Source: an uncultured bacterium
Lineage (GTDB): Bacteria; Omnitrophota; Omnitrophia; Omnitrophales; Aquincolibacteriaceae
Reading direction: 5' to 3'
Length of the DNA: 64,000 nt
Assembly (NCBI GenBank): GCA_964434115.1
Contig: CAYSSX010000001.1
Location: 165,855 to 229,854 of the forward strand
Shown here: in pieces, positions 46,316-60,604 of the stretch
Numbering within the stretch: the first letter of the stretch is position 1
Layout of the letters: each line of letters opens with the position of its first letter
The notes under the pieces: generated by a model
Database searches by the model: none
What the model saw: the letters and a program-made list of their open reading frames with translations, nothing else
What the model was told of the DNA's origin: nothing
Made by a program: the position numbers and the translations under genes

Positions 46316-47692
46316 TTACAAATCCTGGTAACGAACCACCCTGTTCCGGCCTTCTTCTTTGGCGCGGTACAGGGCGGCGTCAGCTTTGCTGATGAGTTCA
46401 TTTGATAGATTGAGTGTGTCGCCGCTTTTCTTATCCAAATCAGGACAATCTGCGGGAAACACGGAAACACCCACACTGGCTGTGACTTTGGTGTTCACGT
46501 CATAAACTTTGTAAATATGTCTCGCTATACTCGAGCGGATTCTTTCCGCAACTTCCAAGGCTCCGGCGGCACCGGTTTCGGGCATCGCCATAATAAATTC
46601 TTCCCCTCCAAAACGGGCCACAAGGTCTACTTTCCGGAGATTCGAACGAAGAATTCCCGCCACCTCACGCAGGGTTGCGTCCCCCACCAGGTGACCGAGT
46701 TCGTCATTATATCTTTTGAAGTGATCAATGTCTAACATTAATAATGCCAATGAGAAGCCGTGTTTTAGACTGCGCCGCAATTCATCTTCAAAGAGCACCA
46801 TAAAGTGGCGGCGTACGAAAACCTGGGTTAAATCATCAATGATTGACAGGGCTTTGACCGTGTCATAAAGGCGTATTTTTTTAATCTGAAGCACGAGGTG
46901 GGCAACCAGGACTTCGAATTTCGCTAAATCCGATACCTTGGCCCCAGAGACCGCCAAATAGGCCAGGGATTCCTGCTGAATGGTCAAATGAAACAGCCAT
47001 CGCGACTCCGAGACTTGAGGGAGGCGGTCTTTTTTGACCGAAAGGACGTCTTTTTTCTCCTGGTCCGTGAGCGGCCGTTCGGACTCCAGAACGCCGGATT
47101 CCTTGATCGCAAAAACGTGATGAGCGGAGTCTTCCGTGCTTCCGGCTCCGGAGGGTACGAGAAGCAGGTCCATTTCCTCAAAGGGAAGTTCCGGACGGAC
47201 TTTTTTATGCAAAGCCTCAGCGAGCGTGGAGTAGCTGAGGCATTCGCTGAAATCACGGGCAATTTCAAAAAGGTCCATCAGGCTGGCGGCCTGTTTTTCA
47301 AGGTGCTGCAAATTGTCAAGACGATGCTGGTGTTTGTGTTTGAGAATTTCCCAGTCCCGCAAAATCTCTTTATTTTTTTCACTTTCGAAAGCGACCTGGC
47401 TCTCCCATCTTTTATGATAAAAAATCAAAGAAGCAATCAATGCGAAATGGCCGGCGCATAAAAGCACCATTTCGGGTTCATAATCCCGGACGATATAAAA
47501 AAGTTCGGAGAGAAAAAACAGCGAGAGGCCGGAGAAGAAAAGTGTGCGGTTCCGTTCCAGATAAAAGTAGAACAATGGAAAAACAAGGAGCGACGAGAAA
47601 ACGTAATATGCCAGGTGCAGATCCCGCGTCTTGAAGTAGACCGCAGGCATCATAATAAGGAAGACCGCGAAGATCAGGTTTCGCTTGAGCAT
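46316..47692 (-). CDS. Membrane-anchored diguanylate cyclase (GGDEF domain)
   Basis: RFGGEEF active-site motif and DIDHFKRYND; N-terminal transmembrane helices. Confidence 0.85.
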   Translation of the reverse strand: MLKRNLIFAVFLIMMPAVYFKTRDLHLAYYVFSSLLVFPLFYFYLERNRTLFFSGLSLFFLSELFYIVRDYEPEMVLLCAGHFALIASLIFYHKRWESQVAFESEKNKEILRDWEILKHKHQHRLDNLQHLEKQAASLMDLFEIARDFSECLSYSTLAEALHKKVRPELPFEEMDLLLVPSGAGSTEDSAHHVFAIKESGVLESERPLTDQEKKDVLSVKKDRLPQVSESRWLFHLTIQQESLAYLAVSGAKVSDLAKFEVLVAHLVLQIKKIRLYDTVKALSIIDDLTQVFVRRHFMVLFEDELRRSLKHGFSLALLMLDIDHFKRYNDELGHLVGDATLREVAGILRSNLRKVDLVARFGGEEFIMAMPETGAAGALEVAERIRSSIARHIYKVYDVNTKVTASVGVSVFPADCPDLDKKSGDTLNLSNELISKADAALYRAKEEGRNRVVRYQDL

Positions 47693-49119
47693 ACCCGGTT
47701 CCTTCCCCCGCGCTTGGCTTTATACAGGGCTTCATCGGCTTTCTGGACGAGCATTTCCAGATCAAGGGTGTCCTGCGGCAGTGTTGCGACCCCGATGGAA
47801 ACGGTCATGGAAACCTGTTCGCGCCGGATCACGAAAGGTTTGCTTTCGACTTCTGAACGAACTCTTTCCGCGGTTCTTATAGCTTCCTCACGCGGACACT
47901 CCGGTAAAAGCACGGAAAATTCTTCACCGCCATAGCGCGCGACAACGGCATTGTCGCAGACCCCTTTAAGGATCTCCGAAAACCGCATCAGCATCAGATC
48001 GCCGCCGCCATGGCCGAAACGGTCATTGCATTCTTTAAAGTGATCAATGTCGCACATCAGCACCGAAAGCGGACGTTTGGTCAGAAGGGCCCGGCCGTGT
48101 TCTTGTTTAAGGCGGTCAAAGAAATAGCGTCTGACGTAAAGGCCCGTCAGGGAATCCTTGATCGCCAGCTCTTCGGTTTTCTCATAAAGCATGGCATTGG
48201 AAATAGCGGAAGAAGAAAGAGCCGCGATGGCGTCAATCAAGCGCAAGTCATCATTGGCGAACGTATTGGGCTCATGCGAGTTGACGCGGAGGGTTCCGAT
48301 GACGCGCCCTTCATGAAGCACCGGGGCAATGATCAAACTCCGGATGTCTTCCTGGCGCGCGGTTTCCGTGACGTCAAAGCGAAAGTCCTGGTGCGAGTCG
48401 GAAACGATAAAGCGCTTCCGGTTTTTGATGGACCACTGGTCAAAGAGATCGCCTTGTTTGGCCGCCGAGGCGGTCGTGTTTCGATGGCTCTTTTTGGAGG
48501 CCACCACGGACAGGTTCTTCCCCTCCGGATCGGCGAGGCTGAGCAGCGTGATGTCGCCGCGGGGAATAAAGTCATTAGTTCTTTCAGCCACCATTTTCCC
48601 CAGTTCACTCACCGACATGGTGGTCGCGAGTTCCTCGGCAAGCTTTCTGAGGTTGTAGTAGGTAGAGTATTTTTCGAAAAGAATACTGATCCCCTCGCCT
48701 TTGACTTTATAGGAAACCTCGAGGTCGTTTCTTTCGTTTTGAAATTTTTCGCGGTCCACCAGAAAATCCGCGATCCTGTTTTCAAAGCTTTCATCCATGC
48801 GGTAAAGCAGCAGGCACAAAATGGCGTAGGCCCCGAGAAACCAGACCACGACCGGGGATTCGGCAACGCCGTAAACAAAAAAGACGAGGATCGCGGCAAA
48901 GGATGCGAAGAGTCCCCCGCCGATAATCCGGAAAGCGATCCAGCCGCCGACAATGGGAAAGAAAAAACCGGAAAGGGCAAGAAAACAGCGCCTGAGATAA
49001 ACTTCGGGAATCAGGGTGTTTTCAAGCGCAGAAAGGGCGTGGATGATTTGATGCGTGAGAATAAAAGACAGAATGACAGATAGGACAAGACTAACGTGAC
49101 GACGGGTTGTTGAACCCAT
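47674..49119 (-). CDS. Diguanylate cyclase with N-terminal transmembrane helices and a GAF-like sensor domain (GGDEF)
   Basis: RYGGEEF and DIDHFKECND. A GAF-like region (LIIAPVLHEGRVIGTLRVNS) is present. Confidence 0.85.
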   Translation of the reverse strand: MGSTTRRHVSLVLSVILSFILTHQIIHALSALENTLIPEVYLRRCFLALSGFFFPIVGGWIAFRIIGGGLFASFAAILVFFVYGVAESPVVVWFLGAYAILCLLLYRMDESFENRIADFLVDREKFQNERNDLEVSYKVKGEGISILFEKYSTYYNLRKLAEELATTMSVSELGKMVAERTNDFIPRGDITLLSLADPEGKNLSVVASKKSHRNTTASAAKQGDLFDQWSIKNRKRFIVSDSHQDFRFDVTETARQEDIRSLIIAPVLHEGRVIGTLRVNSHEPNTFANDDLRLIDAIAALSSSAISNAMLYEKTEELAIKDSLTGLYVRRYFFDRLKQEHGRALLTKRPLSVLMCDIDHFKECNDRFGHGGGDLMLMRFSEILKGVCDNAVVARYGGEEFSVLLPECPREEAIRTAERVRSEVESKPFVIRREQVSMTVSIGVATLPQDTLDLEMLVQKADEALYKAKRGGRNRVCSSET

Positions 49120-53453: not shown

Positions 53454-54746
53454 TTACTTTCTCTCCTGAGTTTTCAGCCAATCTTCCAGACTCATAATTT
53501 TTCTCTCGTCCGGATCAAAGATATGCGTGCAGTTTCTTCCTTGGCGCTTGGATTCCAGAAGCGCAGCGTCTACCCACTTGATCAAAAAGTCGGAGTCGAT
53601 GGAATGAGCGGCTGTTTCCATGGTCACCCCGATGCTGATGGTGATGTGAAGGCCTTCCCCGGAAGACAGAGCCACATAAAGATTCGGATCGGTTTCCATG
53701 TATTGCCTCAGCCGTTCAGCAATTAAGGTGGCCTCATAGAGCTCAACGCCGGGAAGCACGACGCAGAATTCGTCGCCGCCGTAACGGAAAACCAGGGACT
53801 GGCCCGTCACGGTTTCTTTAACGTTCTGAGTCACCAGCTGTAGAATTCTGTCCCCCTGCTGATGCCCCGCCTTGTCGTTGATGGTTTTAAAACCGTCAAC
53901 GTCGAACATAATGATGGAAAAAAAATCCTGGCAGTTTTTATCTTTATAAACATCGGTCGACAGCCAGCGCGTCATGTAGCTTCGGTTGAAGGCGCCGCTG
54001 AGTGTGTCGATCAGGGCCAGGTTTTCCATCCGCTCATAAGCTCTTTTTAAGCGCACCTGATAATCCTGCAGCAGCCGGTTTTCACCTTCCATGCGCTTTT
54101 TAAGTGAAAATTCTTTAAAGCGCATGGTCTCGTTCATTTTGGCGGCGATGACGGCCACCGCGATGTAGAGAGCCAAAAAGGTGTTCGACTTCAGCATCCA
54201 GTCAGACTCGACGGATTCCCGGAGCATGAGGAGTCCCAACGGGTAGAAAAGATAAATGGAAAGACAGATGCAGGTGGTGGCAAAAGCTCCCCACGGCATC
54301 AGGAAACCCATCATGATGAAAAACAAGGTGTAGGTTCCCAGATGATCAATGCTGGTCGGATTTCCGGTAAGCTGAATAAGCGCCGTTGAAGCCCCCACAA
54401 AAATCGCGAGCATCATCGTGAACGCGTAACAGCTTTTTCTGAATTGCGGCAAAAAGCTGAGCGCCCCAAAAAAGAGAAGGACTCCGCTCGCGCAAATCCT
54501 TATTTTGGAAGCGGCTGTCAGCAAATAGTGCCCGCCTCCCTGGGTTAGAAAATCCGAAACCGCGGTGAAGGCAAACAGGGAAAACAAAATGGCCACGCAC
54601 AGGCGGAAGCGAGGGACGGCCAAACGGTCTGTTTCCAATTCAAAAAAGGATTTCAAATCATCCTGCGGAGCGGAATGATCCTTAATGAACCGAACCAGTT
54701 CCTCGCCGACCTTCCCCTCGTCCTTGGCGCGCTTGTTTTTTCCCAT
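53454..54746 (-). CDS. Membrane-anchored diguanylate cyclase (GGDEF domain)
   Basis: RYGGDEF and FDVDGFKTIND with multiple N-terminal transmembrane helices. Its stop codon lies 2 nt from the 3' end of the convergent tRNA-Thr. Confidence 0.85.
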   Translation of the reverse strand: MGKNKRAKDEGKVGEELVRFIKDHSAPQDDLKSFFELETDRLAVPRFRLCVAILFSLFAFTAVSDFLTQGGGHYLLTAASKIRICASGVLLFFGALSFLPQFRKSCYAFTMMLAIFVGASTALIQLTGNPTSIDHLGTYTLFFIMMGFLMPWGAFATTCICLSIYLFYPLGLLMLRESVESDWMLKSNTFLALYIAVAVIAAKMNETMRFKEFSLKKRMEGENRLLQDYQVRLKRAYERMENLALIDTLSGAFNRSYMTRWLSTDVYKDKNCQDFFSIIMFDVDGFKTINDKAGHQQGDRILQLVTQNVKETVTGQSLVFRYGGDEFCVVLPGVELYEATLIAERLRQYMETDPNLYVALSSGEGLHITISIGVTMETAAHSIDSDFLIKWVDAALLESKRQGRNCTHIFDPDERKIMSLEDWLKTQERK

Positions 54747-55146: not shown

Positions 55147-55962
55147 TTAAGAGACAGAAGCAAAAGAAAAGGGATACGGAGGGTTTCCAAAGCAAAGAAA
55201 ACCGGGGTTTGTTAAGTCCGGCTTATTATAGAGGAACTCTTTTTTGTCCCATTGAAGGACGCTTCCCCCGGATTCATTGACAATGCAATGGGCGGCGGCG
55301 GTGTCCCATTCCATGGTGGGTCCGATTCTTGGATAAAAATGAGCGGAGCCTTCTGCGACAAGTCCCATTTTGAGGGCGCTTCCCACATTCAGGACCTTGA
55401 CCGGCTTCCATTCCGCAAGCAGACGGTCCATTTTATCCCGGTCGTGGGAGCGGCTTGCCGCCACAATAAGTCCCCCGGCCCGGTAATCTGCGGCGCGGAT
55501 CTTCTGGGTTTGTCCCGAAGGCCCTTTCTTGAATGCGCCCCCTCCGGAAAAAGCCGAGTACACAAAATGGAGTGCGGGCGCGAGCATAACGCCTAAAACA
55601 GGGCGGCTTTTGTGAATCAAACCGATGTTAACCGAAAACTCACCATTGCGATTCACGAATTCTTTGGTGCCGTCCAAGGGATCCACGAGCCAAAAGCTTT
55701 CCCAGTTTTTGCGCTCCTCAAAAGGCGGCGGGGCCGATTCTTCTGAGATCACGGGAATTGCCGGGGTCAATTGCTGTAGACCTTCGGAGATGATTTGATG
55801 GGATTGAGCATCGGCTAGCGTTAACGGAGACCGGTCTTCTTTATAAGTCACGGCAAAATCAGGATGGTGATAAACATCCAGGATGGCGGCACTGGCACGC
55901 TCTGCCAGCTGAACAACTGAGGGAAGGAGCTGGGCGAGAAACTGAGAATCGGGCGCTGCCAT
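55147..55962 (-). CDS. cysQ: 3'(2'),5'-bisphosphate nucleotidase CysQ (inositol monophosphatase family)
   Basis: WLVDPLDGTKEF metal-binding motif. The N-terminus aligns with CysQ. The track ORF starts with a TTG inside the repeat region, so the start is set at the ATG at 55962. Confidence 0.75.
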   Translation of the reverse strand: MAAPDSQFLAQLLPSVVQLAERASAAILDVYHHPDFAVTYKEDRSPLTLADAQSHQIISEGLQQLTPAIPVISEESAPPPFEERKNWESFWLVDPLDGTKEFVNRNGEFSVNIGLIHKSRPVLGVMLAPALHFVYSAFSGGGAFKKGPSGQTQKIRAADYRAGGLIVAASRSHDRDKMDRLLAEWKPVKVLNVGSALKMGLVAEGSAHFYPRIGPTMEWDTAAAHCIVNESGGSVLQWDKKEFLYNKPDLTNPGFLCFGNPPYPFSFASVS

Positions 55963-55996
55963 CACTGCGGCTTCTTTCTCAAAACAGAATTGAATC

Positions 55997-56188
55997 GGGA
56001 TACGGCCGTAAGCCAAATGCTTACGGCATTCCGCTCGGCCCTGACGGCCTTCGCTTCAGGAACCTTCGATTCCCTTTAAAAATAAATGGAGCGGGATACG
56101 GCCGTAAGCCAAATGCTTACGGCATTCCGCTCGGCCCTGACGGCCTTCGCTTCAGGAACCTTCGATTCCCTTTAAAAATAAATGGAGC
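55997..56188. repeat. Two perfect tandem copies of a 96-bp unit directly abutting tRNA-Gly, each ending with a 15-nt copy of the tRNA 3' end plus an 8-bp-stem hairpin
   Basis: The unit is gggatacggccgtaagccaaatgcttacggcattccgctcggccctgacggccttcgcttcaggaaccttcgattccctttaaaaataaatggagc, at 55997-56092 and 56093-56188. It contains the hairpin ccgtaagc-caaat-gcttacgg. In minus orientation it ends in CCGTATCCCGCTCCA, identical to the tRNA-Gly 3' terminus. Confidence 0.9.
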
Positions 56189-56257
56189 GGGATACGGGAA
56201 TCGAACCCGTCTGACCAGCTTGGGAAGCTGGGACATTACCACTATGCTAATCCCGCA
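56184..56257 (-). tRNA. tRNA-Gly (anticodon CCC), 74 nt with encoded CCA
   Basis: Manual fold: acceptor GCGGGAT/ATCCCGC, anticodon stem CCAGC/GCTGG with loop TTCCCAA, T-arm ACGGG-TTCGATT-CCCGT, and CCA. Confidence 0.85.
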
Positions 56258-56301: not shown

Positions 56302-57231
56302 TTAAAAGGCGCTGGTATGACGGAAAAGTTCAAGCCTCTCATCAAGATCCCGGCGGGAGATCTTGCGGAGCTTTTCCAGCCCAAACTCTTCCACGGCAAA
56401 AGACGCGACAATCGTTCCGTAAGCCGCGGCGCGTTTGATATTCTCAAAAGAGGTATCACCTGTCGAAGCCAAATAGCCCATAAGCCCCCCGGCAAAACTG
56501 TCACCCGCGCCTGTCGGGTCAAAAACACTTTCAAGCGGATAGGCGGGTAAAGCAAAAAAGCGGTTTCCGGCGATGAGCAGAACCCCGTGTTCGCCTTTTT
56601 TAATCACCACGCATTCCGGGCCGTAACCGCGGATGATTTGAGCGGCCCGAACGAGGTTGGGTTCCCCGGTCAGCTGCCGAGCCTCCCCGTCGTTTAACAC
56701 AAACCCGTCAACGCGGGATAAAACTTTGAGCAACTCTTCCTTTTTGCTCGCGATCCAGTAGTTCATGGTGTCGCAGGCGACAAATTTAAGGCGCGGCTTT
56801 GAAAGCTGATCCAAAACCTTGAGCTGAAGAACCGGATCAATGTTCGCGAGAAAAACAAATTCGGGTTCCTGTTTTAAGCTGATTTTGGGGTTAAAGGCCG
56901 CTAAAACGTTCAAATGCGTTTCCAGAGTATTGGCGGAGTTCATGTCGTTTTCATAAAAACCTTTCCAGGCAAAAGTCTTTCCTGAAACGGTTTCGAGGTT
57001 TGACAAATCAATCGGGCGCTCCCCGAGAATGCGGCGGTATTCTTCAGGGAAATCCTCCCCGACCACGCCGACCAGCGCGACTTTCTGAAAAAAACTTGCG
57101 GCGTAAGAAAAATAGGAGGCGGATCCCCCAAAAACTTTTTCGCGGGATCCGAAAGGGGTTCGTATCGAATCAATCGCAACGGTTCCGACCACGACCAAAG
57201 GTTTGCTTGCGACCAGGGTTTCAGCGCTCAT
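56302..57231 (-). CDS. PfkB-family carbohydrate kinase (candidate heptose-7-phosphate kinase, HldA / HldE domain I equivalent)
   Basis: DPTGAGDSFAGG anion-hole motif and a ribokinase-like fold. The start is set at the internal ATG at 57231, 7 nt after the upstream stop. It lies directly downstream of the adenylyltransferase-ThiE gene and gmhA. Confidence 0.75.
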   Translation of the reverse strand: MSAETLVASKPLVVVGTVAIDSIRTPFGSREKVFGGSASYFSYAASFFQKVALVGVVGEDFPEEYRRILGERPIDLSNLETVSGKTFAWKGFYENDMNSANTLETHLNVLAAFNPKISLKQEPEFVFLANIDPVLQLKVLDQLSKPRLKFVACDTMNYWIASKKEELLKVLSRVDGFVLNDGEARQLTGEPNLVRAAQIIRGYGPECVVIKKGEHGVLLIAGNRFFALPAYPLESVFDPTGAGDSFAGGLMGYLASTGDTSFENIKRAAAYGTIVASFAVEEFGLEKLRKISRRDLDERLELFRHTSAF

Positions 57232-58387
57232 GACGGTAAATCCTTTCTGAAAGTTGATGAGCCGCCTGGGCGGGGTTTTTCGCGTCAAAAACGGCGCGCA
57301 CCACAGCCACCCGGACAGCGCCTGCATCCAGCACGCTTTTAAGATTTGATTCGTTAATACCGCCGATGGCGACAAAAGGTTTCTTTATTTCCCGGGCCGC
57401 CTGACGAACAAGCTTGAGTCCGACGGGAATATATCCGGGTTTGGTTGGAGTTGTGAAAACCGGCCCTACGCCGATGTAGTCAACTTCTTCCCGGGCCGTT
57501 TTACGCGCCTGAACAAGACTATGAGTAGACTTCCCAAGATACAGTTTGTGTCCGGCCTTTTTTAAAAGACCGCGAATCGCAGGGACGGGCAGATCATCCT
57601 GACCGATATGCAAACCGTCTGCATGACAGGCCAACGCGATATCGAGACGGTCATTGACGAAAAAAAGCTTTTGATAGCGGTCCGCGAGACGTCTGAGTCC
57701 GATACCCGCGGCCGCGAGTTCTTTATCGGAAATATTTTTTCCCCGCAGCTGGATAATGTCCGCGCCGCCTCGATAGACCGCCTCAGCCTTTTTGAGGAAG
57801 CCCGGAATGGAGTCACCCTGTTTCAGGTCTGAAACAGCGTAAAGGCGGAAATTTTTAAAAACAGTTTCGCGCCAGTCGCTCATTTGCCGGTTTATTTTCT
57901 GCCCGGCTTCGGGATGGGCCAAAATCTTTTCAATCACGCCCGTTGTGGACCGGCCTTTTAAAAAAGTAATGCGTTTTACTTTGCCGCCCCAGGAAAGCAC
58001 TTCCTTGCCGCCGACGATGTCGCCGGTTTTCCAATCCGCTCCCTTGACAAGCACATCGGGACGGGAAGCCAGGATCAGACGGAGGGGGGTCGGATCAGAA
58101 AAAAGCACTACGTAATCCACGCAGGAAAGAGCCGCCAGCACCGCCAGGCGGTCCTTTTCGGAGTTTACGGGCCGATGCGGCCCCTTGTAAGAACGGACCG
58201 AAGCGTCCGTGTTGATTCCGAGGATTAAGACATCACCCAGGGAGCGGGCTTTTTCAAGATACTGAACATGGCCCGCGTGGAGAATGTCGAAGGCCCCGTT
58301 TGTGAAAACAATTTTCTTCTTTTGCTTATGGAGGCGTGCTGCCGTTTTTTGAAGACTTGCGAGGGTGAGAACTTTCAGCTTATTCAT
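57221..58387 (-). CDS. Fusion protein: heptose-1-phosphate adenylyltransferase domain (HldE domain II / RfaE-II, cytidylyltransferase fold) plus thiamine-phosphate synthase domain (ThiE)
   Basis: N-terminus: IVFTNGAFDILHAGHVQYLEKARSLGD...VNSEKDR...VKGADW...GGKV, which matches RfaE domain II. C-terminus: LYAVSD...GADIIQLR...ADGLHIGQDDLP...LGKSTHSL...VDYIGVGPVFTTPTK, which matches ThiE. Confidence 0.8.
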   Translation of the reverse strand: MNKLKVLTLASLQKTAARLHKQKKKIVFTNGAFDILHAGHVQYLEKARSLGDVLILGINTDASVRSYKGPHRPVNSEKDRLAVLAALSCVDYVVLFSDPTPLRLILASRPDVLVKGADWKTGDIVGGKEVLSWGGKVKRITFLKGRSTTGVIEKILAHPEAGQKINRQMSDWRETVFKNFRLYAVSDLKQGDSIPGFLKKAEAVYRGGADIIQLRGKNISDKELAAAGIGLRRLADRYQKLFFVNDRLDIALACHADGLHIGQDDLPVPAIRGLLKKAGHKLYLGKSTHSLVQARKTAREEVDYIGVGPVFTTPTKPGYIPVGLKLVRQAAREIKKPFVAIGGINESNLKSVLDAGAVRVAVVRAVFDAKNPAQAAHQLSERIYRHER

Positions 58388-58959
58388 GAGGCGAAAAGCT
58401 TTTGCTCCACGACTTCCGAAACTGCGTGAAGCGCAGTGATGTGAACCTCTTGAATGTGAGGGGTCTTCGGCGTCTGGGCTTTAAAACAAAGGTCGCAGAT
58501 TTTGGCCAGCTCCCCGCCCGCTTCCCCGGTCAGGCCGATCGTAATGACGCCCTGACTTTTGGCTTGCCGGACCGCCTCAAGAACATTCTTCGAGTTGCCG
58601 CTTGTGGAAATTCCGATCAGCACGTCGCCTTTTTCTCCGAGCCCTTCCACCTGACGGGAAAAAACCCGTTCAAAGCAATAGTCATTGGCCACGGCTGTGA
58701 GAATGGAGGTGTCGGTGGTCAGCGCGATCGCGGGCAGGCTTTTGCGCTCGAGCTTGAAGCGGGCGATAAATTCCGCGGCAATATGCTGGGAATCCGCCGC
58801 GCTTCCGCCGTTACCGCAAAGAAGCAGTTTCCGTCCCTTGCGGAAAGCTTCCACAAGAACCTCGGCAACGGCTTCCAGCGTTTTCATCTGCTCGGGAGTG
58901 AAACTTCTCTCCACGGCCTCGCGGTGATACCCGATGATGCTTTCAAGAGATTTGATCAA
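58384..58959 (-). CDS. gmhA: D-sedoheptulose-7-phosphate isomerase GmhA (SIS domain)
   Basis: LLLCGNGGSAADSQHIAAEF...GDVLIGISTSGNSKNV...IHITALH aligns closely with E. coli GmhA. The start is uncertain; a TTG after the pfk stop or the internal ATG at 58887 are the candidates. Confidence 0.8.
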   Translation of the reverse strand: MIKSLESIIGYHREAVERSFTPEQMKTLEAVAEVLVEAFRKGRKLLLCGNGGSAADSQHIAAEFIARFKLERKSLPAIALTTDTSILTAVANDYCFERVFSRQVEGLGEKGDVLIGISTSGNSKNVLEAVRQAKSQGVITIGLTGEAGGELAKICDLCFKAQTPKTPHIQEVHITALHAVSEVVEQKLFAS

Positions 58960-58963
58960 GCAC

Positions 58964-59989
58964 TCACCCAAAGAAGATTTTAGCCATCTCGTAAAGATCC
59001 GGCGGAACGGTTTTAAGCTTTCCGACAGCTTCTTCAAGACAGACATCCACGACATTGCGGCCTTGCAGACTGACCATGTGGCCGTATTTTTCTGACTTCA
59101 CGAGCTCTACCGCTTTGACTCCGAAGCGTGTTCCGAGAACGCGGTCAAAGGCCGTCGGTGTTCCGCCGCGCTGAATGTGGCCCAGCACAGTGACACGGGT
59201 TTCAAAACCTGTTTTCGCTTCGATGATATCGCCCAGCGTGTTACCGATCCCGCCGAGACGGACATGCCCGAACGCGTCCAGCTTTTCTTCGACAACGACA
59301 TTTTGATTTTGAATCACGGCGCCTTCGGCAACGGCCACAATACTGAAAGTCTTGCCGCGTTGATGGCGCTTTTTAATCAGCTCGCAGACCTGCTCCACAT
59401 CAATGGGAACCTCAGGAATCAAAATCACATCGGCTCCTCCGGCAATCCCTGCTTCAAGAGCAATCCAGCCTGCGTGGCGGCCCATGATCTCAACCACCAT
59501 GACGCGGTTGTGAGATTCGGCCGTGGTGTGCAGACGGTCAATGCATTCCGTAGCGATATTCAATGCCGTGTCGAATCCAAACGTGTAATCCGTGGCGTTG
59601 AGGTCATTGTCGATCGTTTTAGGAACACCGATGACGCGGACGCCTTCTTTATGAAGCTTGTTGGCGGCACCCAGCGTGTCTTCGCCGCCGATGGCAATCA
59701 AGGCGTGAAGATTGTTTTTTGCCATGGTCTCTTTGACCTTGGCGATGTTTTCGGGGGATTTGCAGGGGTTTGTCCGGGATGTGCCGAGAATCGTTCCGCC
59801 CTTCGGAAGAATGCCGGATACGGAGTTCTGATCCAGAATCACGAAATCATTTTCAATCATTCCCCGCCAGCCGTAGCGGAAGCCCAAGGTTTTCCAGTTG
59901 TACATCTGCGCAGTTTTCACAACAGCCCGAATGACCGCGTTTAATCCCGGGCAATCACCACCGCCTGTGAGCACACCAATCTGAGTCAT
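58964..59989 (-). CDS. pfkA: 6-phosphofructokinase (PfkA family; ATP- or PPi-dependent not resolved)
   Basis: GVLTGGGDCPGLNAVIR, IGGEDTLGAA, MGRHAG and GHIQRGG motifs. Confidence 0.9.
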   Translation of the reverse strand: MTQIGVLTGGGDCPGLNAVIRAVVKTAQMYNWKTLGFRYGWRGMIENDFVILDQNSVSGILPKGGTILGTSRTNPCKSPENIAKVKETMAKNNLHALIAIGGEDTLGAANKLHKEGVRVIGVPKTIDNDLNATDYTFGFDTALNIATECIDRLHTTAESHNRVMVVEIMGRHAGWIALEAGIAGGADVILIPEVPIDVEQVCELIKKRHQRGKTFSIVAVAEGAVIQNQNVVVEEKLDAFGHVRLGGIGNTLGDIIEAKTGFETRVTVLGHIQRGGTPTAFDRVLGTRFGVKAVELVKSEKYGHMVSLQGRNVVDVCLEEAVGKLKTVPPDLYEMAKIFFG

Positions 59990-60022: not shown

Positions 60023-60604
60023 TTATACTGAAACAGGTTTATCGTTTTTATCTTCTTGGCTCTGACGGTCACCCTCATAATCCTCGATGCGCTGAACGTC
60101 ACAGAGAATTTCAAAGCGGTTATCCGGGCCGAGCATCTTGCGCAGGCGGTCTCCAATTTCATCCTGAATTTCCGCCAAAAGCTTGGGAACCCCGCCGCCT
60201 GACCAAAGCACCAGACGGAGTTTGATTTCCAGATCTTTTCCGTGGATCAACGTTTTGGCCTTCCACTCCTTGACCATGTGGATCCGCTTCAAAACCTTTT
60301 TGATGACGTCTTCAACGGCCGTCACGGAAATGATCATCGGGCCCGATTCGCCCTGATAGATAATCGCGTCTGATTCGCGCCCTTTTTTGACCAGCATCCT
60401 TGAAAAGATCAAGCCCACGGTAATAAACAAAATCCCGATAAATCCAAGATGCAGGGATTGGACGGGATTTTCATAAACTTCCCGAAGTTTGAAAATCGCA
60501 TCTTCCAGACTCAGGACATGGAGCGCGACAATCATCAAGAGACTGCCCAGCGTCAAAAAAGCAAAGATGGCAAAGATCTGAGCAAAAACATTAATCACTT
60601 TCAT
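60023..60604 (-). CDS. Asp23/AmaP-like membrane-anchored stress protein (tentative)
   Basis: N-terminal transmembrane helices followed by an Asp23-like region (VTAVEDVIKKVLKRI...). Low-confidence family call. Confidence 0.35.
   Translation of the reverse strand: MKVINVFAQIFAIFAFLTLGSLLMIVALHVLSLEDAIFKLREVYENPVQSLHLGFIGILFITVGLIFSRMLVKKGRESDAIIYQGESGPMIISVTAVEDVIKKVLKRIHMVKEWKAKTLIHGKDLEIKLRLVLWSGGGVPKLLAEIQDEIGDRLRKMLGPDNRFEILCDVQRIEDYEGDRQSQEDKNDKPVSV

What the first reader, a model, noticed from the sequence alone, without database searches (positions are those of the whole stretch)
57221..58387. ADP-heptose adenylyltransferase domain fused to thiamine-phosphate synthase (HldE-II::ThiE), with the kinase half split off downstream
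The N-terminal 160 aa match RfaE/HldE domain II (FTNGAFDILHAGH...VNSEKDR...VKGADW). The C-terminal 220 aa are a complete ThiE (ADGLHIGQDD, GKSTHS, VDYIGVGPVF). The PfkB kinase that is normally fused as HldE domain I is a separate gene, with the next gene down being 56302-57231, and gmhA lies just upstream. A cytidylyltransferase-fold nucleotidyltransferase fused to ThiE is not an architecture I recognise. It could be an accident of operon fusion, or a functional link between heptose nucleotide activation and thiamine phosphate synthesis. Alternatively the nucleotidyltransferase may have been recruited to thiamine metabolism.
Basis: partly seen in the sequence, partly recalled or inferred. Interest (0 to 1): 0.6.

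Follow-up and report, generated by a model that had tools for sequence, protein, structure and literature searches.

The report
HldC–ThiE fusion from neighbouring genes
A small group of uncultured Omnitrophota bacteria has welded two unrelated, well-known enzymes (one activates an LPS heptose sugar, the other assembles vitamin B1) into one protein, because their genes sat side by side and the gene between them was deleted; it is real and rare, but probably has no new chemistry.

Summary
Window 57221-58387 (-) is one 388-aa ORF. Its N-terminal half passes the curated HldC/RfaE-domain-II cut-off. Its C-terminal half passes the ThiE cut-off.

The fusion is not an assembly artefact:
- It occurs in 7 protein clusters (57-100 % identity), in independent assemblies and in two GTDB species genomes.
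- The linker is always in frame and is conserved through synonymous changes.
- Both halves are under purifying selection.

Its origin can be read from synteny. Every Omnitrophota locus recovered has PFK-gmhA-hldC followed directly by thiamine genes (thiD2, thiE, thiC) and then a PfkB kinase. One clade lost thiC from the cluster. Several lineages then lost thiD2, which left hldC and thiE abutting. One clade, including this window, fused them.

The AlphaFold model shows two confident domains joined by a disordered linker of about 9 residues.

It scores 39 bits against a cut-off of 345 and belongs to a different (3kd6-like) subfamily.

The most likely reading is a bifunctional enzyme with two independent activities, made by fusion of neighbouring genes. 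The architecture is rare and apparently undescribed. Interest is modest. The residual puzzle is what replaces ThiD2, and why hldC and thiamine genes are linked across the phylum.

The parts
57221..58387 (-). Fused hldC::thiE gene (388 aa plus stop codon)
   Evidence: ORF. Both domains are above curated cut-offs. It recurs in 7 clusters and 2 GTDB species genomes.
57920..58342 (-). HldC (RfaE domain II) heptose-1-phosphate adenylyltransferase domain, residues 16-156. Carries the HxGH motif (H37-A-G-H40) and the RSTT motif (R146-T149).
   Evidence: TIGR02199 scores 196.5 bits against a cut-off of 181.5. 5x9q matches at E 5.6e-38. Fold TMt to 5xf2 is 0.85-0.89. 38 of 40 positions that are >=95 % conserved in free HldC are kept in all fused proteins.
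57881..57907 (-). Inter-domain linker, residues 161-169 (…EAGQKINRQM). It ends at the retained former thiE start codon, ATG 57881-57883 (M169).
   Evidence: This is the only segment with pLDDT < 50 in a model with mean pLDDT 92. It is in frame in all six fused genes, and HPExGxKxN is conserved through synonymous changes. The former start codon is ATG in three lineages but GTT, GTC or ATC in three others.
57251..57847 (-). ThiE thiamine-phosphate synthase domain, residues 181-379
   Evidence: TIGR00693 scores 186.4 bits against a cut-off of 145.1, and PF02581 matches at E 3.5e-53. Catalytic residues align with B. subtilis ThiE. 52 of 62 strongly conserved positions are kept, including every 100 %-conserved one. 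Fold TMt is 0.82-0.90.
58384..58971 (-). gmhA-type sedoheptulose-7-phosphate isomerase (SIS_2). Its probable 195-aa form overlaps the fusion's start by 4 bp.
   Evidence: TIGR00441 scores 205.2 bits, just under the 209.45 cut-off, and PF13580 matches at E 1.4e-30. The gene is 191-195 aa in relatives and in the gene call of L089.
58964..59989 (-). 6-phosphofructokinase (PFK_mixed), the first gene of the conserved cluster
   Evidence: TIGR02483 scores 479.5 bits against a cut-off of 430.55. It is syntenic in all Omnitrophota loci.
56302..57231 (-). PfkB-family sugar kinase of the 3kd6-like subfamily. It overlaps the fusion's end by 11 bp. It is not a canonical HldA/HldE-I.
   Evidence: PF00294 matches at E 2.9e-26. 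rfaE_dom_I scores 39 bits against a cut-off of 345. 3kd6 matches at E 7e-94 and no HldA is among the top 60 PDB matches. blastp against HldE kinase domains gives only a local match. Sources name its relatives 'sugar kinase'.
56183..56256 (-). tRNA-Gly(CCC), which closes the cluster
   Evidence: A tRNA follows PfkB in 12 of 18 related loci.

Best explanation
The gene encodes a bifunctional protein made by in-frame fusion of two neighbouring, functionally unrelated genes.

How it arose (inferred from comparative data):
- In Omnitrophota the ancestral cluster is PFK-gmhA-hldC-thiD2-thiE-thiC-pfkB-tRNA, tightly packed.
- One large clade lost thiC from the cluster.
- Several lineages then lost thiD2, which left the hldC stop codon 0-8 nt from the thiE start.
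- In one clade, which includes this window, the hldC stop was lost. The former 3' end and spacer now encode a linker of roughly 10 residues.

How it works (inferred from family membership, not assayed):
- The N-terminal domain most likely still converts D-glycero-beta-D-manno-heptose 1-phosphate plus ATP to ADP-heptose.
- The C-terminal domain most likely still couples HMP-PP with thiazole phosphate to give thiamine phosphate.
- The two domains fold independently on a flexible tether and share no substrate. The only functional consequence is obligatory 1:1 co-expression.
For: Fusion is real:
- 7 clusters of 387-388 aa at 57-100 % identity.
- Independent assemblies and GTDB genomes L009 and L010.

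Origin:
- L007/L008 have separate 157-aa hldC and 216-aa thiE genes 8 nt apart in identical synteny.
- 45 GTDB Omnitrophota loci have gmhA-hldC. In all 44 that extend past hldC it is followed by thiD2, thiE and/or thiC. ThiD2 and ThiC were confirmed by Pfam.
- An NJ tree puts the fused genes in one clade, nested inside the thiD2-thiE-pfkB clade.

Both halves are constrained:
- For WIN-L009, pS is 0.72-0.73 (saturated), against pN of 0.05 for HldC and 0.18 for ThiE.
- The linker is kept in frame with synonymous changes. The former thiE start codon is no longer a start codon in L001, L003 and L006, so ThiE there exists only as the fusion.

Active sites:
- 38 of 40 HldC positions and 52 of 62 ThiE positions that are >=95 % conserved in free-standing proteins are kept in all fused proteins.
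- ThiE residues align to B. subtilis Q57/R59/K61, N92/D93, D112, S130, T156/T158/K159 and G188 (the residue roles are from my memory of the 2TPS literature).

Structure:
- Mean pLDDT is 92, only residues 161-169 fall below 50, and pTM is 0.61. That indicates two independent domains.
- Each domain matches its solved counterpart, and no solved chain covers both.
Against: - No enzymology: both activities are inferred.
- thiD2 and thiC are absent from the 64-kb window and from all fused loci. Canonical thiD is reported in only 3 of 176 complete Omnitrophota genomes. The source of HMP-PP for the ThiE half is therefore unknown.
- The ThiE half evolves markedly faster than the HldC half only in the fused clade. 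The identity gap is 18.7 points there against 2.6 points in unfused pairs. A pyrophosphate-contact lysine (K217) is H or R in three fused clusters. This could mean relaxed constraint or altered function.
- No canonical heptose kinase, GmhB or heptosyltransferase was found in the window, so the heptose pathway is incomplete as far as can be seen.
- The phylum-wide hldC-thiamine linkage is more persistent than simple chance adjacency would predict.
Confidence: 0.75

Rival explanations
1. Functional recruitment. In the clade that lost thiD2, the HldC-type adenylyltransferase tethered to ThiE activates HMP-P, for example by adenylylation to ADP-HMP that ThiE then uses with ADP as the leaving group. 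More broadly, HldC may be metabolically coupled to thiamine synthesis in Omnitrophota.
For: - In 41 of the 45 GTDB Omnitrophota loci with gmhA-hldC, hldC is followed directly by thiD2.
- The fusion sits exactly where ThiD2-ThiE fusions normally carry ThiD2. The NF002727 model matches only its ThiE part.
- thiD2 and thiC are absent from the window, and canonical thiD is rare in the phylum.
- The ThiE half is accelerated in the fused clade, and the K217 pyrophosphate contact is changed to H or R in some members.
- There is a second fusion of hldC, to thiD2, in L017.
Against: - The HldC half keeps 38 of 40 family-conserved residues and is the slower-evolving half.
- It is 52-65 % identical to HldC/HldE-II from other phyla that have no thiamine neighbours.
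- It overlaps gmhA by 4 bp.
- Unfused relatives carry hldC and thiD2 together, so HldC is not a ThiD2 substitute there.
- The L017 fusion is a singleton and may be an error.
- thiD2 may simply lie elsewhere in the genome, as thiC must in the large clade that lacks it in the cluster.
Confidence: 0.07
2. Artefact: a sequencing or assembly frameshift or a missed stop codon joins two separate genes.
For: Metagenome-assembled genomes do contain indel errors. The analogous HldC-ThiD2 ORF in L017 is seen only once.
Against: - The same fused ORF occurs in 7 protein clusters down to 57 % identity, from different samples and assemblers.
- An identical protein is found in two assemblies.
- All six fused genes analysed are in frame, with a conserved linker peptide encoded by different codons.
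Confidence: 0.02
3. Decaying passenger. After thiD2 and thiC were lost, the ThiE half is no longer needed and is degenerating. The protein is effectively an HldC with a vestigial C-terminal barrel.
For: - ThiE identity is 57-76 % in fused-fused pairs, against 67-97 % in unfused pairs at the same PFK divergence.
- Substitutions occur at 10 of 62 conserved positions, including K217.
- There are no thiD2 or thiC genes nearby.
Against: - pN/pS is about 0.25 with saturated synonymous sites.
- Every position that is 100 % conserved in 112 free ThiE proteins is retained in all 7 fused clusters.
- There are no stops or indels in any of the 7 clusters.
- The barrel is modelled at pLDDT of about 95.
- thiE is present in at least 167 of 176 complete Omnitrophota genomes.
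Confidence: 0.12

Closest known systems
HldC (stand-alone D-glycero-beta-D-manno-heptose-1-phosphate adenylyltransferase, e.g. Burkholderia pseudomallei, PDB 5x9q/5xf2) and domain II of E. coli-type HldE
   Same: The N-terminal 158 residues align without gaps over about 137 residues, with 47-48 % structural-alignment identity. The HxGH and RSTT motifs, the fold and the gmhA neighbour are all shared.
   Different: Here the domain is fused C-terminally to ThiE rather than standing alone or being fused N-terminally to a PfkB heptose kinase. No canonical HldA partner is visible.
ThiE thiamine-phosphate synthase (B. subtilis 2TPS, M. tuberculosis 3O63, P. furiosus 1XI3)
   Same: It has the full TIM-barrel domain and conserved catalytic residues, and it scores above the curated ThiE cut-off. 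It does not score as TenI.
   Different: It carries an N-terminal nucleotidyltransferase. It has lost its usual Omnitrophota neighbours thiD2 and thiC, and it evolves faster than in unfused relatives.
Known ThiE fusions: ThiD2-ThiE (NF002727/PRK02615 type), yeast THI6 (ThiE-ThiM), plant TH1 (ThiD-ThiE), Nudix-TenI/ThiE-like (PRK08999)
   Same: ThiE is joined in one chain to another small enzyme. In ThiD2-ThiE the extra domain sits N-terminal to ThiE, as it does here.
   Different: In ThiD2-ThiE, THI6 and TH1 the partner is another thiamine-pathway enzyme; here the partner belongs to LPS sugar-nucleotide synthesis. NF002727 matches only over its ThiE part (210 bits against a cut-off of 335).
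Split-gene Omnitrophota cluster gmhA-hldC-thiD2-thiE(-thiC)-pfkB
   Same: The neighbourhood and the orthologous genes are the same; this is the ancestor of the fusion.
   Different: thiD2 (and thiC) have been deleted, and the hldC stop codon has been lost.

Membership tests
HldC / RfaE domain II (TIGR02199) | Scores above the curated equivalog-domain cut-off | tested here: met
   196.5 bits against a cut-off of 181.5, over residues 16-156.
HldC / RfaE domain II (TIGR02199) | Nucleotidyltransferase HxGH motif and C-terminal RSTT-type phosphate-binding motif, plus family-conserved residues | tested here: met
   H37-A-G-H40 and R146-S-T-T149 are invariant in the fused clade. 38 of 40 positions that are >=95 % conserved in free HldC are kept.
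HldC / RfaE domain II (TIGR02199) | Fold matches a solved HldC | tested here: met
   5xf2 gives TMt 0.85-0.89, rmsd 1.6-2.8 Å and 47-48 % identity. The model's mean pLDDT is 92.
HldC / RfaE domain II (TIGR02199) | Pathway partners are present (GmhA, heptose-7-P kinase HldA, GmhB phosphatase, heptosyltransferase) | tested here: inconclusive
   A GmhA-type gene is adjacent, scoring 205.2 bits against a cut-off of 209.45. No canonical HldA, GmhB or Glyco_transf_9 was found among the window ORFs scanned. Only 64 kb of the genome is visible.
HldC / RfaE domain II (TIGR02199) | Catalyses ADP-heptose formation | not testable with these tools
   Needs an enzyme assay.
Bifunctional HldE (NF008454/PRK11316) | An N-terminal PfkB heptose-7-P kinase domain in the same chain, with a score above cut-off | tested here: not met
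   184 bits against a cut-off of 521. Only model positions 320-472 are matched.
HldA / RfaE domain I (TIGR02198), tested on the downstream PfkB gene 56302-57231 | Full-length similarity to heptose-7-P kinase domains above the curated cut-off | tested here: not met
   39.3 bits against a cut-off of 345. The best blastp match to 10 HldE kinase domains is E 5e-7 over 103 aa. No heptose kinase is among the top 60 PDB hits.
ThiE thiamine-phosphate synthase (TIGR00693 / PF02581) | Scores above the curated cut-off and is distinguished from TenI | tested here: met
   TIGR00693 scores 186.4 bits against a cut-off of 145.1. TenI NF005819 scores 102.8 bits against a cut-off of 251.
ThiE thiamine-phosphate synthase (TIGR00693 / PF02581) | Catalytic and substrate-binding residues (B. 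subtilis Q57, R59, K61, N92, D93, D112, S130, T156, T158, K159, G188) | tested here: met
   They align to Q213, R215, K217, N245, D246, D265, S287, T313, T315, K316 and G343. All are invariant in the fused clade except K217, which is H or R in 3 of 7 clusters. The residue roles are recalled from the literature.
ThiE thiamine-phosphate synthase (TIGR00693 / PF02581) | Co-occurrence with enzymes that supply HMP-PP (ThiC plus ThiD or ThiD2) | tested here: inconclusive
   They are present next to thiE in unfused relatives. They are absent from this window and from all fused loci.
ThiD2-ThiE fusion (NF002727/PRK02615) | An N-terminal ThiD2 (PF17792) domain | tested here: not met
   210.5 bits against a cut-off of 335, with only model positions 141-346 matched. 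There is no PF17792 hit.

The most novel reading that the evidence does not exclude
In the Omnitrophota clade that deleted thiD2 (the phylum's usual HMP-P kinase), the HldC-type adenylyltransferase now covalently attached to ThiE has taken over activation of HMP-P. It would make an ADP-linked pyrimidine that ThiE condenses with thiazole phosphate. That would be a nucleotidyl-activated variant of the last assembly step of thiamine synthesis. It would also explain why hldC is glued to thiamine genes across the phylum.
Probability: 0.06. Interest if true: 0.75.

Novelty: new variant of a known kind. Interest (0 to 1): 0.3.

Why it matters
If the ordinary reading is right, this is a clean, datable example of a 'Rosetta-stone' fusion that joins functionally unrelated enzymes only because they were operon neighbours in a compact genome. 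That is a useful caution for function prediction by domain fusion, and for automatic annotation, which would otherwise call this protein only ThiE or only HldC.

It also exposes three small open questions about Omnitrophota metabolism:
- The phylum relies on ThiD2, not ThiD. That would explain why KEGG-based surveys report thiD as missing.
- Some lineages have lost thiD2 while keeping a constrained ThiE.
- The heptose kinase of the phylum is unidentified, with a conserved 3kd6-type PfkB as the obvious candidate.

If the novel reading were right, it would be a new activation chemistry in vitamin B1 synthesis.

Tried and rejected
- **TPP riboswitch in the gap.** I suspected that the roughly 400-nt gap between hldC and thiE in most relatives held a TPP riboswitch. 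Rfam at gathering thresholds found only tRNAs in 18 loci and in the window. The gap is the thiD2 gene.
- **P0009.** I suspected that P0009 (316 aa) was an HldC-ThiD2 fusion. It is a tandem cytidylyltransferase.
- **L017.** The HldC-ThiD2 fusion in L017 was followed up as a possible second independent fusion. It is a singleton cluster, so it is not used as evidence.
- **Representative search.** The exhaustive search at 50 % identity did not list the fusion family itself. The family is presumably hidden behind a single-domain representative. The search therefore shows only that no strongly scoring independent fusion is present, not that none exists. Its two-stretch hits were ThiE-ThiE, ThiE-ThiF and nitrilase-cytidylyltransferase proteins.
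- **Alignment A3.** Alignment A3, which mixed single-domain and fused proteins, was misaligned by MAFFT and discarded.
- **First AlphaFold run.** The run with 7 sequences gave a poor HldC half. It was repeated with a deeper alignment.
- **Promoter and terminator scan.** The scan gave counts close to those from shuffled sequence and was not used.
- **dN/dS ratios.** Proper ratios could not be computed for most pairs because synonymous sites are saturated.
- **PfkB as thiazole kinase.** A ThiM-like thiazole-kinase role for the PfkB was considered. Pfam gives only PF00294 over the full length, with no hit to the HK family, so this is left as an untested idea.
Full report
**Observation**

The window carries an uninterrupted 388-aa ORF at 57221-58387 on the minus strand.
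- Pfam finds CTP_transf_like (residues 29-121) and TMP-TENI (residues 183-366).
- The curated NCBIfam models are both passed. TIGR02199, the RfaE domain II / heptose-1-phosphate adenylyltransferase model, scores 196.5 bits (cut-off 181.5) over residues 16-156. TIGR00693, the ThiE model, scores 186.4 bits (cut-off 145.1) over residues 181-379. The TenI model and the bifunctional HldE model are not reached.
- The nearest solved proteins are Burkholderia pseudomallei HldC for the first half and M. tuberculosis, P. furiosus and B. subtilis ThiE for the second.
- A GmhA-type SIS gene overlaps the start of the ORF by 4 bp. A PfkB kinase gene overlaps its end by 11 bp.

**Is the fusion real?**

Yes.
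- A search of 5.8 billion protein clusters returned seven clusters of 387-388 aa. They are 57-100 % identical to the query and all carry both Pfam domains.
- They come from different sequencing projects and sit in the same gene neighbourhood.
- The identical protein occurs on an NCBI contig of 517,562 bp and in an independent Logan assembly.
- Two GTDB species-representative genomes also carry the fused ORF: L009, and L010 (Candidatus Omnitrophota bacterium ZLKRG04).
- In a codon alignment of six fused genes the junction is always in frame. The linker peptide HPExGxKxN is conserved while its codons differ (CAT/CAC, CCC/CCG/CCT, GAA/GAG, GGG/GGT/GGA).
- The former thiE start codon is still ATG in three lineages. 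It is GTT, GTC or ATC in three others, so ThiE there can only be made as part of the fusion.

A frameshift artefact is excluded for practical purposes.

**Where it came from**

The closest ThiE-only relatives are from Omnitrophota.
- One relative (L007/L008) has exactly the same neighbourhood (DUF1844, LPG_synthase_TM, DHquinase_II, AccB, AccC, a conserved 191-aa ORF, PFK, GmhA). It carries a separate 157-aa hldC and a 216-aa thiE that are 8 nt apart, followed by the PfkB gene.
- The protein alignment shows that the fused proteins contain the complete HldC, including its C-terminal helix. A short linker follows, and then the complete ThiE starting at its old initiator position.

A scan of one genome per GTDB species recovered 45 Omnitrophota loci with gmhA-hldC. 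In all 44 that extend past hldC, it is followed directly by thiamine genes:

| Arrangement after gmhA | GTDB loci |
|---|---|
| hldC-thiD2-thiE-pfkB | 17 |
| hldC-thiD2-thiE-thiC-pfkB | 10 |
| fused hldC::thiE-pfkB | 2 |
| hldC-thiE(-pfkB), no thiD2 (L016, L018, L023) | 3 |
| smaller variants (including some without thiE) | 13 |

- The inserted genes were confirmed as ThiD2 (PF17792, E 1e-34 to 1e-38) and ThiC (PF01964).
- No TPP riboswitch is present.
- L018 has a 227-nt non-coding spacer where thiD2 sits in relatives.
- A neighbour-joining tree of PFK+GmhA+HldC places the five fused genes included in it (L006 was left out because its PFK is partial) in one clade nested within the thiD2-thiE-pfkB group. 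It suggests that thiD2 was lost more than once.

The sequence of events is therefore: loss of thiC from the cluster, loss of thiD2, abutting hldC and thiE, then loss of the hldC stop codon.

**Are both halves working?**

- Synonymous sites between the window and its closest relative are saturated (pS 0.72-0.73). Non-synonymous differences are 0.05 per site in the HldC half and 0.18 in the ThiE half.
- In the HldC half, 38 of 40 positions that are at least 95 % conserved in 39 free-standing HldC proteins are kept in all seven fused clusters.
- In the ThiE half, 52 of 62 such positions (from 112 free ThiE proteins) are kept, including every position that is 100 % conserved.
- The ThiE residues that align with the B. 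subtilis active site are present. K217 (= K61) is H or R in three clusters. The functional roles of these residues are from my recollection of the 2TPS/1G4T literature, not from a tool.
- An AlphaFold model built from a 46-sequence alignment has mean pLDDT 92. Only residues 161-169 fall below 50, and pTM is 0.61. This is the signature of two well-folded domains with no fixed mutual orientation.
- Foldseek matches each domain to its solved counterpart (TMt 0.82-0.90), and no solved chain covers both.

One asymmetry is worth recording. At equal PFK divergence (at least 89 % identity), the ThiE half is on average 18.7 identity points more diverged than the HldC half in fused-fused pairs. In unfused pairs the difference is 2.6 points. 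The pairs are not phylogenetically independent, so this is descriptive. It does suggest relaxed or altered constraint on ThiE after thiD2 and thiC left the locus.

**The kinase claim**

The downstream PfkB gene is not the missing HldE kinase half in any sense that sequence can show.
- It scores 39 bits against a 345-bit cut-off for rfaE_dom_I.
- It has only a 103-residue local match (E 5e-7) to ten real HldE kinase domains. Those domains align with each other over their full length at E 1e-27 to 1e-110.
- Its only close solved relative is the uncharacterised Chlorobium-type PfkB 3kd6 (E 7e-94). No heptose kinase is among its 60 best PDB matches.
- Sources call its relatives 'sugar kinase'.

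It is nevertheless a conserved member of the cluster, even where thiE is absent. A role as a non-orthologous heptose-7-phosphate kinase remains possible but untested.

No canonical HldA, GmhB or heptosyltransferase was seen among the window ORFs scanned. The rest of the window is otherwise a large surface-polysaccharide/LPS region that includes LptD.

**Mechanism**

The best-supported reading is a bifunctional enzyme whose two domains act independently.
- HldC makes ADP-heptose from heptose-1-phosphate and ATP.
- ThiE makes thiamine phosphate from HMP-PP and thiazole phosphate.

These are established reactions of the two families. Their assignment here rests on family membership, not on an assay. 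The fusion has no obvious catalytic logic, and its origin from abutting genes explains it fully.

**What remains unexplained**

- Why is hldC glued to thiamine genes throughout a phylum?
- What supplies HMP-PP in the fused clade? thiD2 and thiC are absent from the window and from all fused loci.
- A preprint on 176 complete Omnitrophota genomes reports canonical thiD in only 3 genomes, thiG in 38, and thiE/thiC/thiL in at least 167 (10.64898/2026.06.07.730766).
- Seymour et al. report thiamine synthesis in more than 75 % of species (PMC10066038).
- ThiD2 phosphorylates HMP-P but not HMP (PMC12345177, citing the original ThiD2 study).

The simplest answer is that thiD2 has moved elsewhere in the genome, as thiC must have in the large clade that lacks it in the cluster. 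The most novel answer is that the tethered adenylyltransferase activates HMP-P. The evidence does not exclude this, but the canonical and slowly evolving HldC half argues against it. I give it about 6 %.

**Novelty and rarity**

- Apart from the seven clusters, no protein combining the two domains appeared among the best 120 hits of the word-indexed searches, or among the best 150 of the exhaustive search of 1.84 billion representatives. The caveat is that the fusion family itself is hidden there behind a single-domain representative.
- Full-text searches for HldC with thiamine, and for thiamine phosphate synthase with heptose and fusion, returned nothing. The rfaE/thiE co-mentions listed are unrelated by title.
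- Known ThiE fusions such as ThiD2-ThiE, THI6 and TH1 join it to other thiamine enzymes, which this one does not.

I rate this a new variant of a known kind. It is a rare, real and apparently undescribed architecture built from two ordinary enzymes by a traceable neighbour fusion. Interest is modest.

Noticed in passing
L009-L088 (Omnitrophota loci); window 56302-59989: There is a phylum-wide conserved cluster, PFK-gmhA-hldC-thiD2-thiE-thiC-pfkB-tRNA. In all 44 of the 45 Omnitrophota species loci that extend past hldC, it is followed directly by thiamine genes. This persistent linkage of an LPS sugar-nucleotide gene with vitamin B1 genes is unexplained.
   Followed up: partly
L017:5926-6888 (GTDB MAG contig CAYMUZ010000213): HldC and ThiD2 lie in one ORF, with both Pfam domains strong. 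This is a second, different fusion of hldC to its thiamine neighbour. It is a singleton protein cluster (P0392), so it may be a frameshift error.
   Followed up: yes
window 57224-57877 compared with L001, L003, L009, L010: The ThiE half diverges much faster than the HldC half only within the fused clade. The mean identity gap is 18.7 points there, against 2.6 points in unfused pairs at the same PFK divergence. K217, the pyrophosphate-contact lysine, is H or R in three fused clusters.
   Followed up: partly
window 56302-57231: The PfkB kinase is a close relative (E 7e-94) of the uncharacterised structural-genomics protein 3kd6 and is very conserved (82-90 % within the clade). It is a candidate non-orthologous heptose-7-phosphate kinase, or a thiamine-salvage kinase. 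Its function is unknown.
   Followed up: partly
window 56183-56256 (-); L011-L027 and others: tRNA-Gly(CCC) directly follows the PfkB gene, and a tRNA occupies this position in 12 of 18 related loci scanned. Several short-read contigs (L001, L003, L089) end about 120 bp after PfkB, which suggests an assembly break or a variable region at this tRNA.
   Followed up: no
L018:6484-6690: A 227-nt non-coding spacer lies between hldC and thiE where relatives have thiD2. Rfam finds nothing and no ORF is present. It may be a remnant of the thiD2 deletion.
   Followed up: partly
L043, L061, L074, L085; window 55147-56016: hldC is immediately followed by a CysQ-type (inositol-monophosphatase family) phosphatase in four deltaproteobacterial genomes. 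The window and L010 also have CysQ just beyond PfkB and the tRNA. A bisphosphate phosphatase next to hldC could stand in for GmhB, but here it passes the CysQ equivalog cut-off (295 bits against 229).
   Followed up: no
window 60023-60604 (-): A 193-aa ORF with no Pfam hit is conserved in the same position, between accC and PFK, in L001, L003 and L007 (190-193 aa). Its N-terminal stretch is hydrophobic by eye (not tested).
   Followed up: no
window 1480-46303: There is a large surface-polysaccharide/LPS region. It contains an O-antigen ligase (Wzy_C), two DUF2079 paralogues, NeuB, a CMP-sugar cytidylyltransferase, a DegT aminotransferase, a flippase, GT1/GT2/GT4 transferases, three ArnT-like PMT_2 proteins, a YfhO-like protein, UDP-glucose dehydrogenase and an LptD-like protein. 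No heptosyltransferase (Glyco_transf_9) was seen.
   Followed up: partly
window 46316-49119 and 53454-54746: There are three GGDEF diguanylate cyclase genes within 9 kb, one of them with GAF domains.
   Followed up: no
P0123, P0125, P0127, P0133, P0146, P0167, P0247 (representative library): Tandem ThiE-ThiE (double TMP-TENI) proteins of 376-462 aa, and a ThiE-ThiE-ThiF-rhodanese protein (P0131, 716 aa), exist in public metagenomes.
   Followed up: no
literature: bioRxiv 10.64898/2026.06.07.730766: The reported near-absence of thiD (3 of 176) in complete Omnitrophota genomes is probably explained by ThiD2 (PF17792). ThiD2 sits next to hldC in most species loci examined here and is not covered by the KEGG thiD orthologue.
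   Followed up: partly
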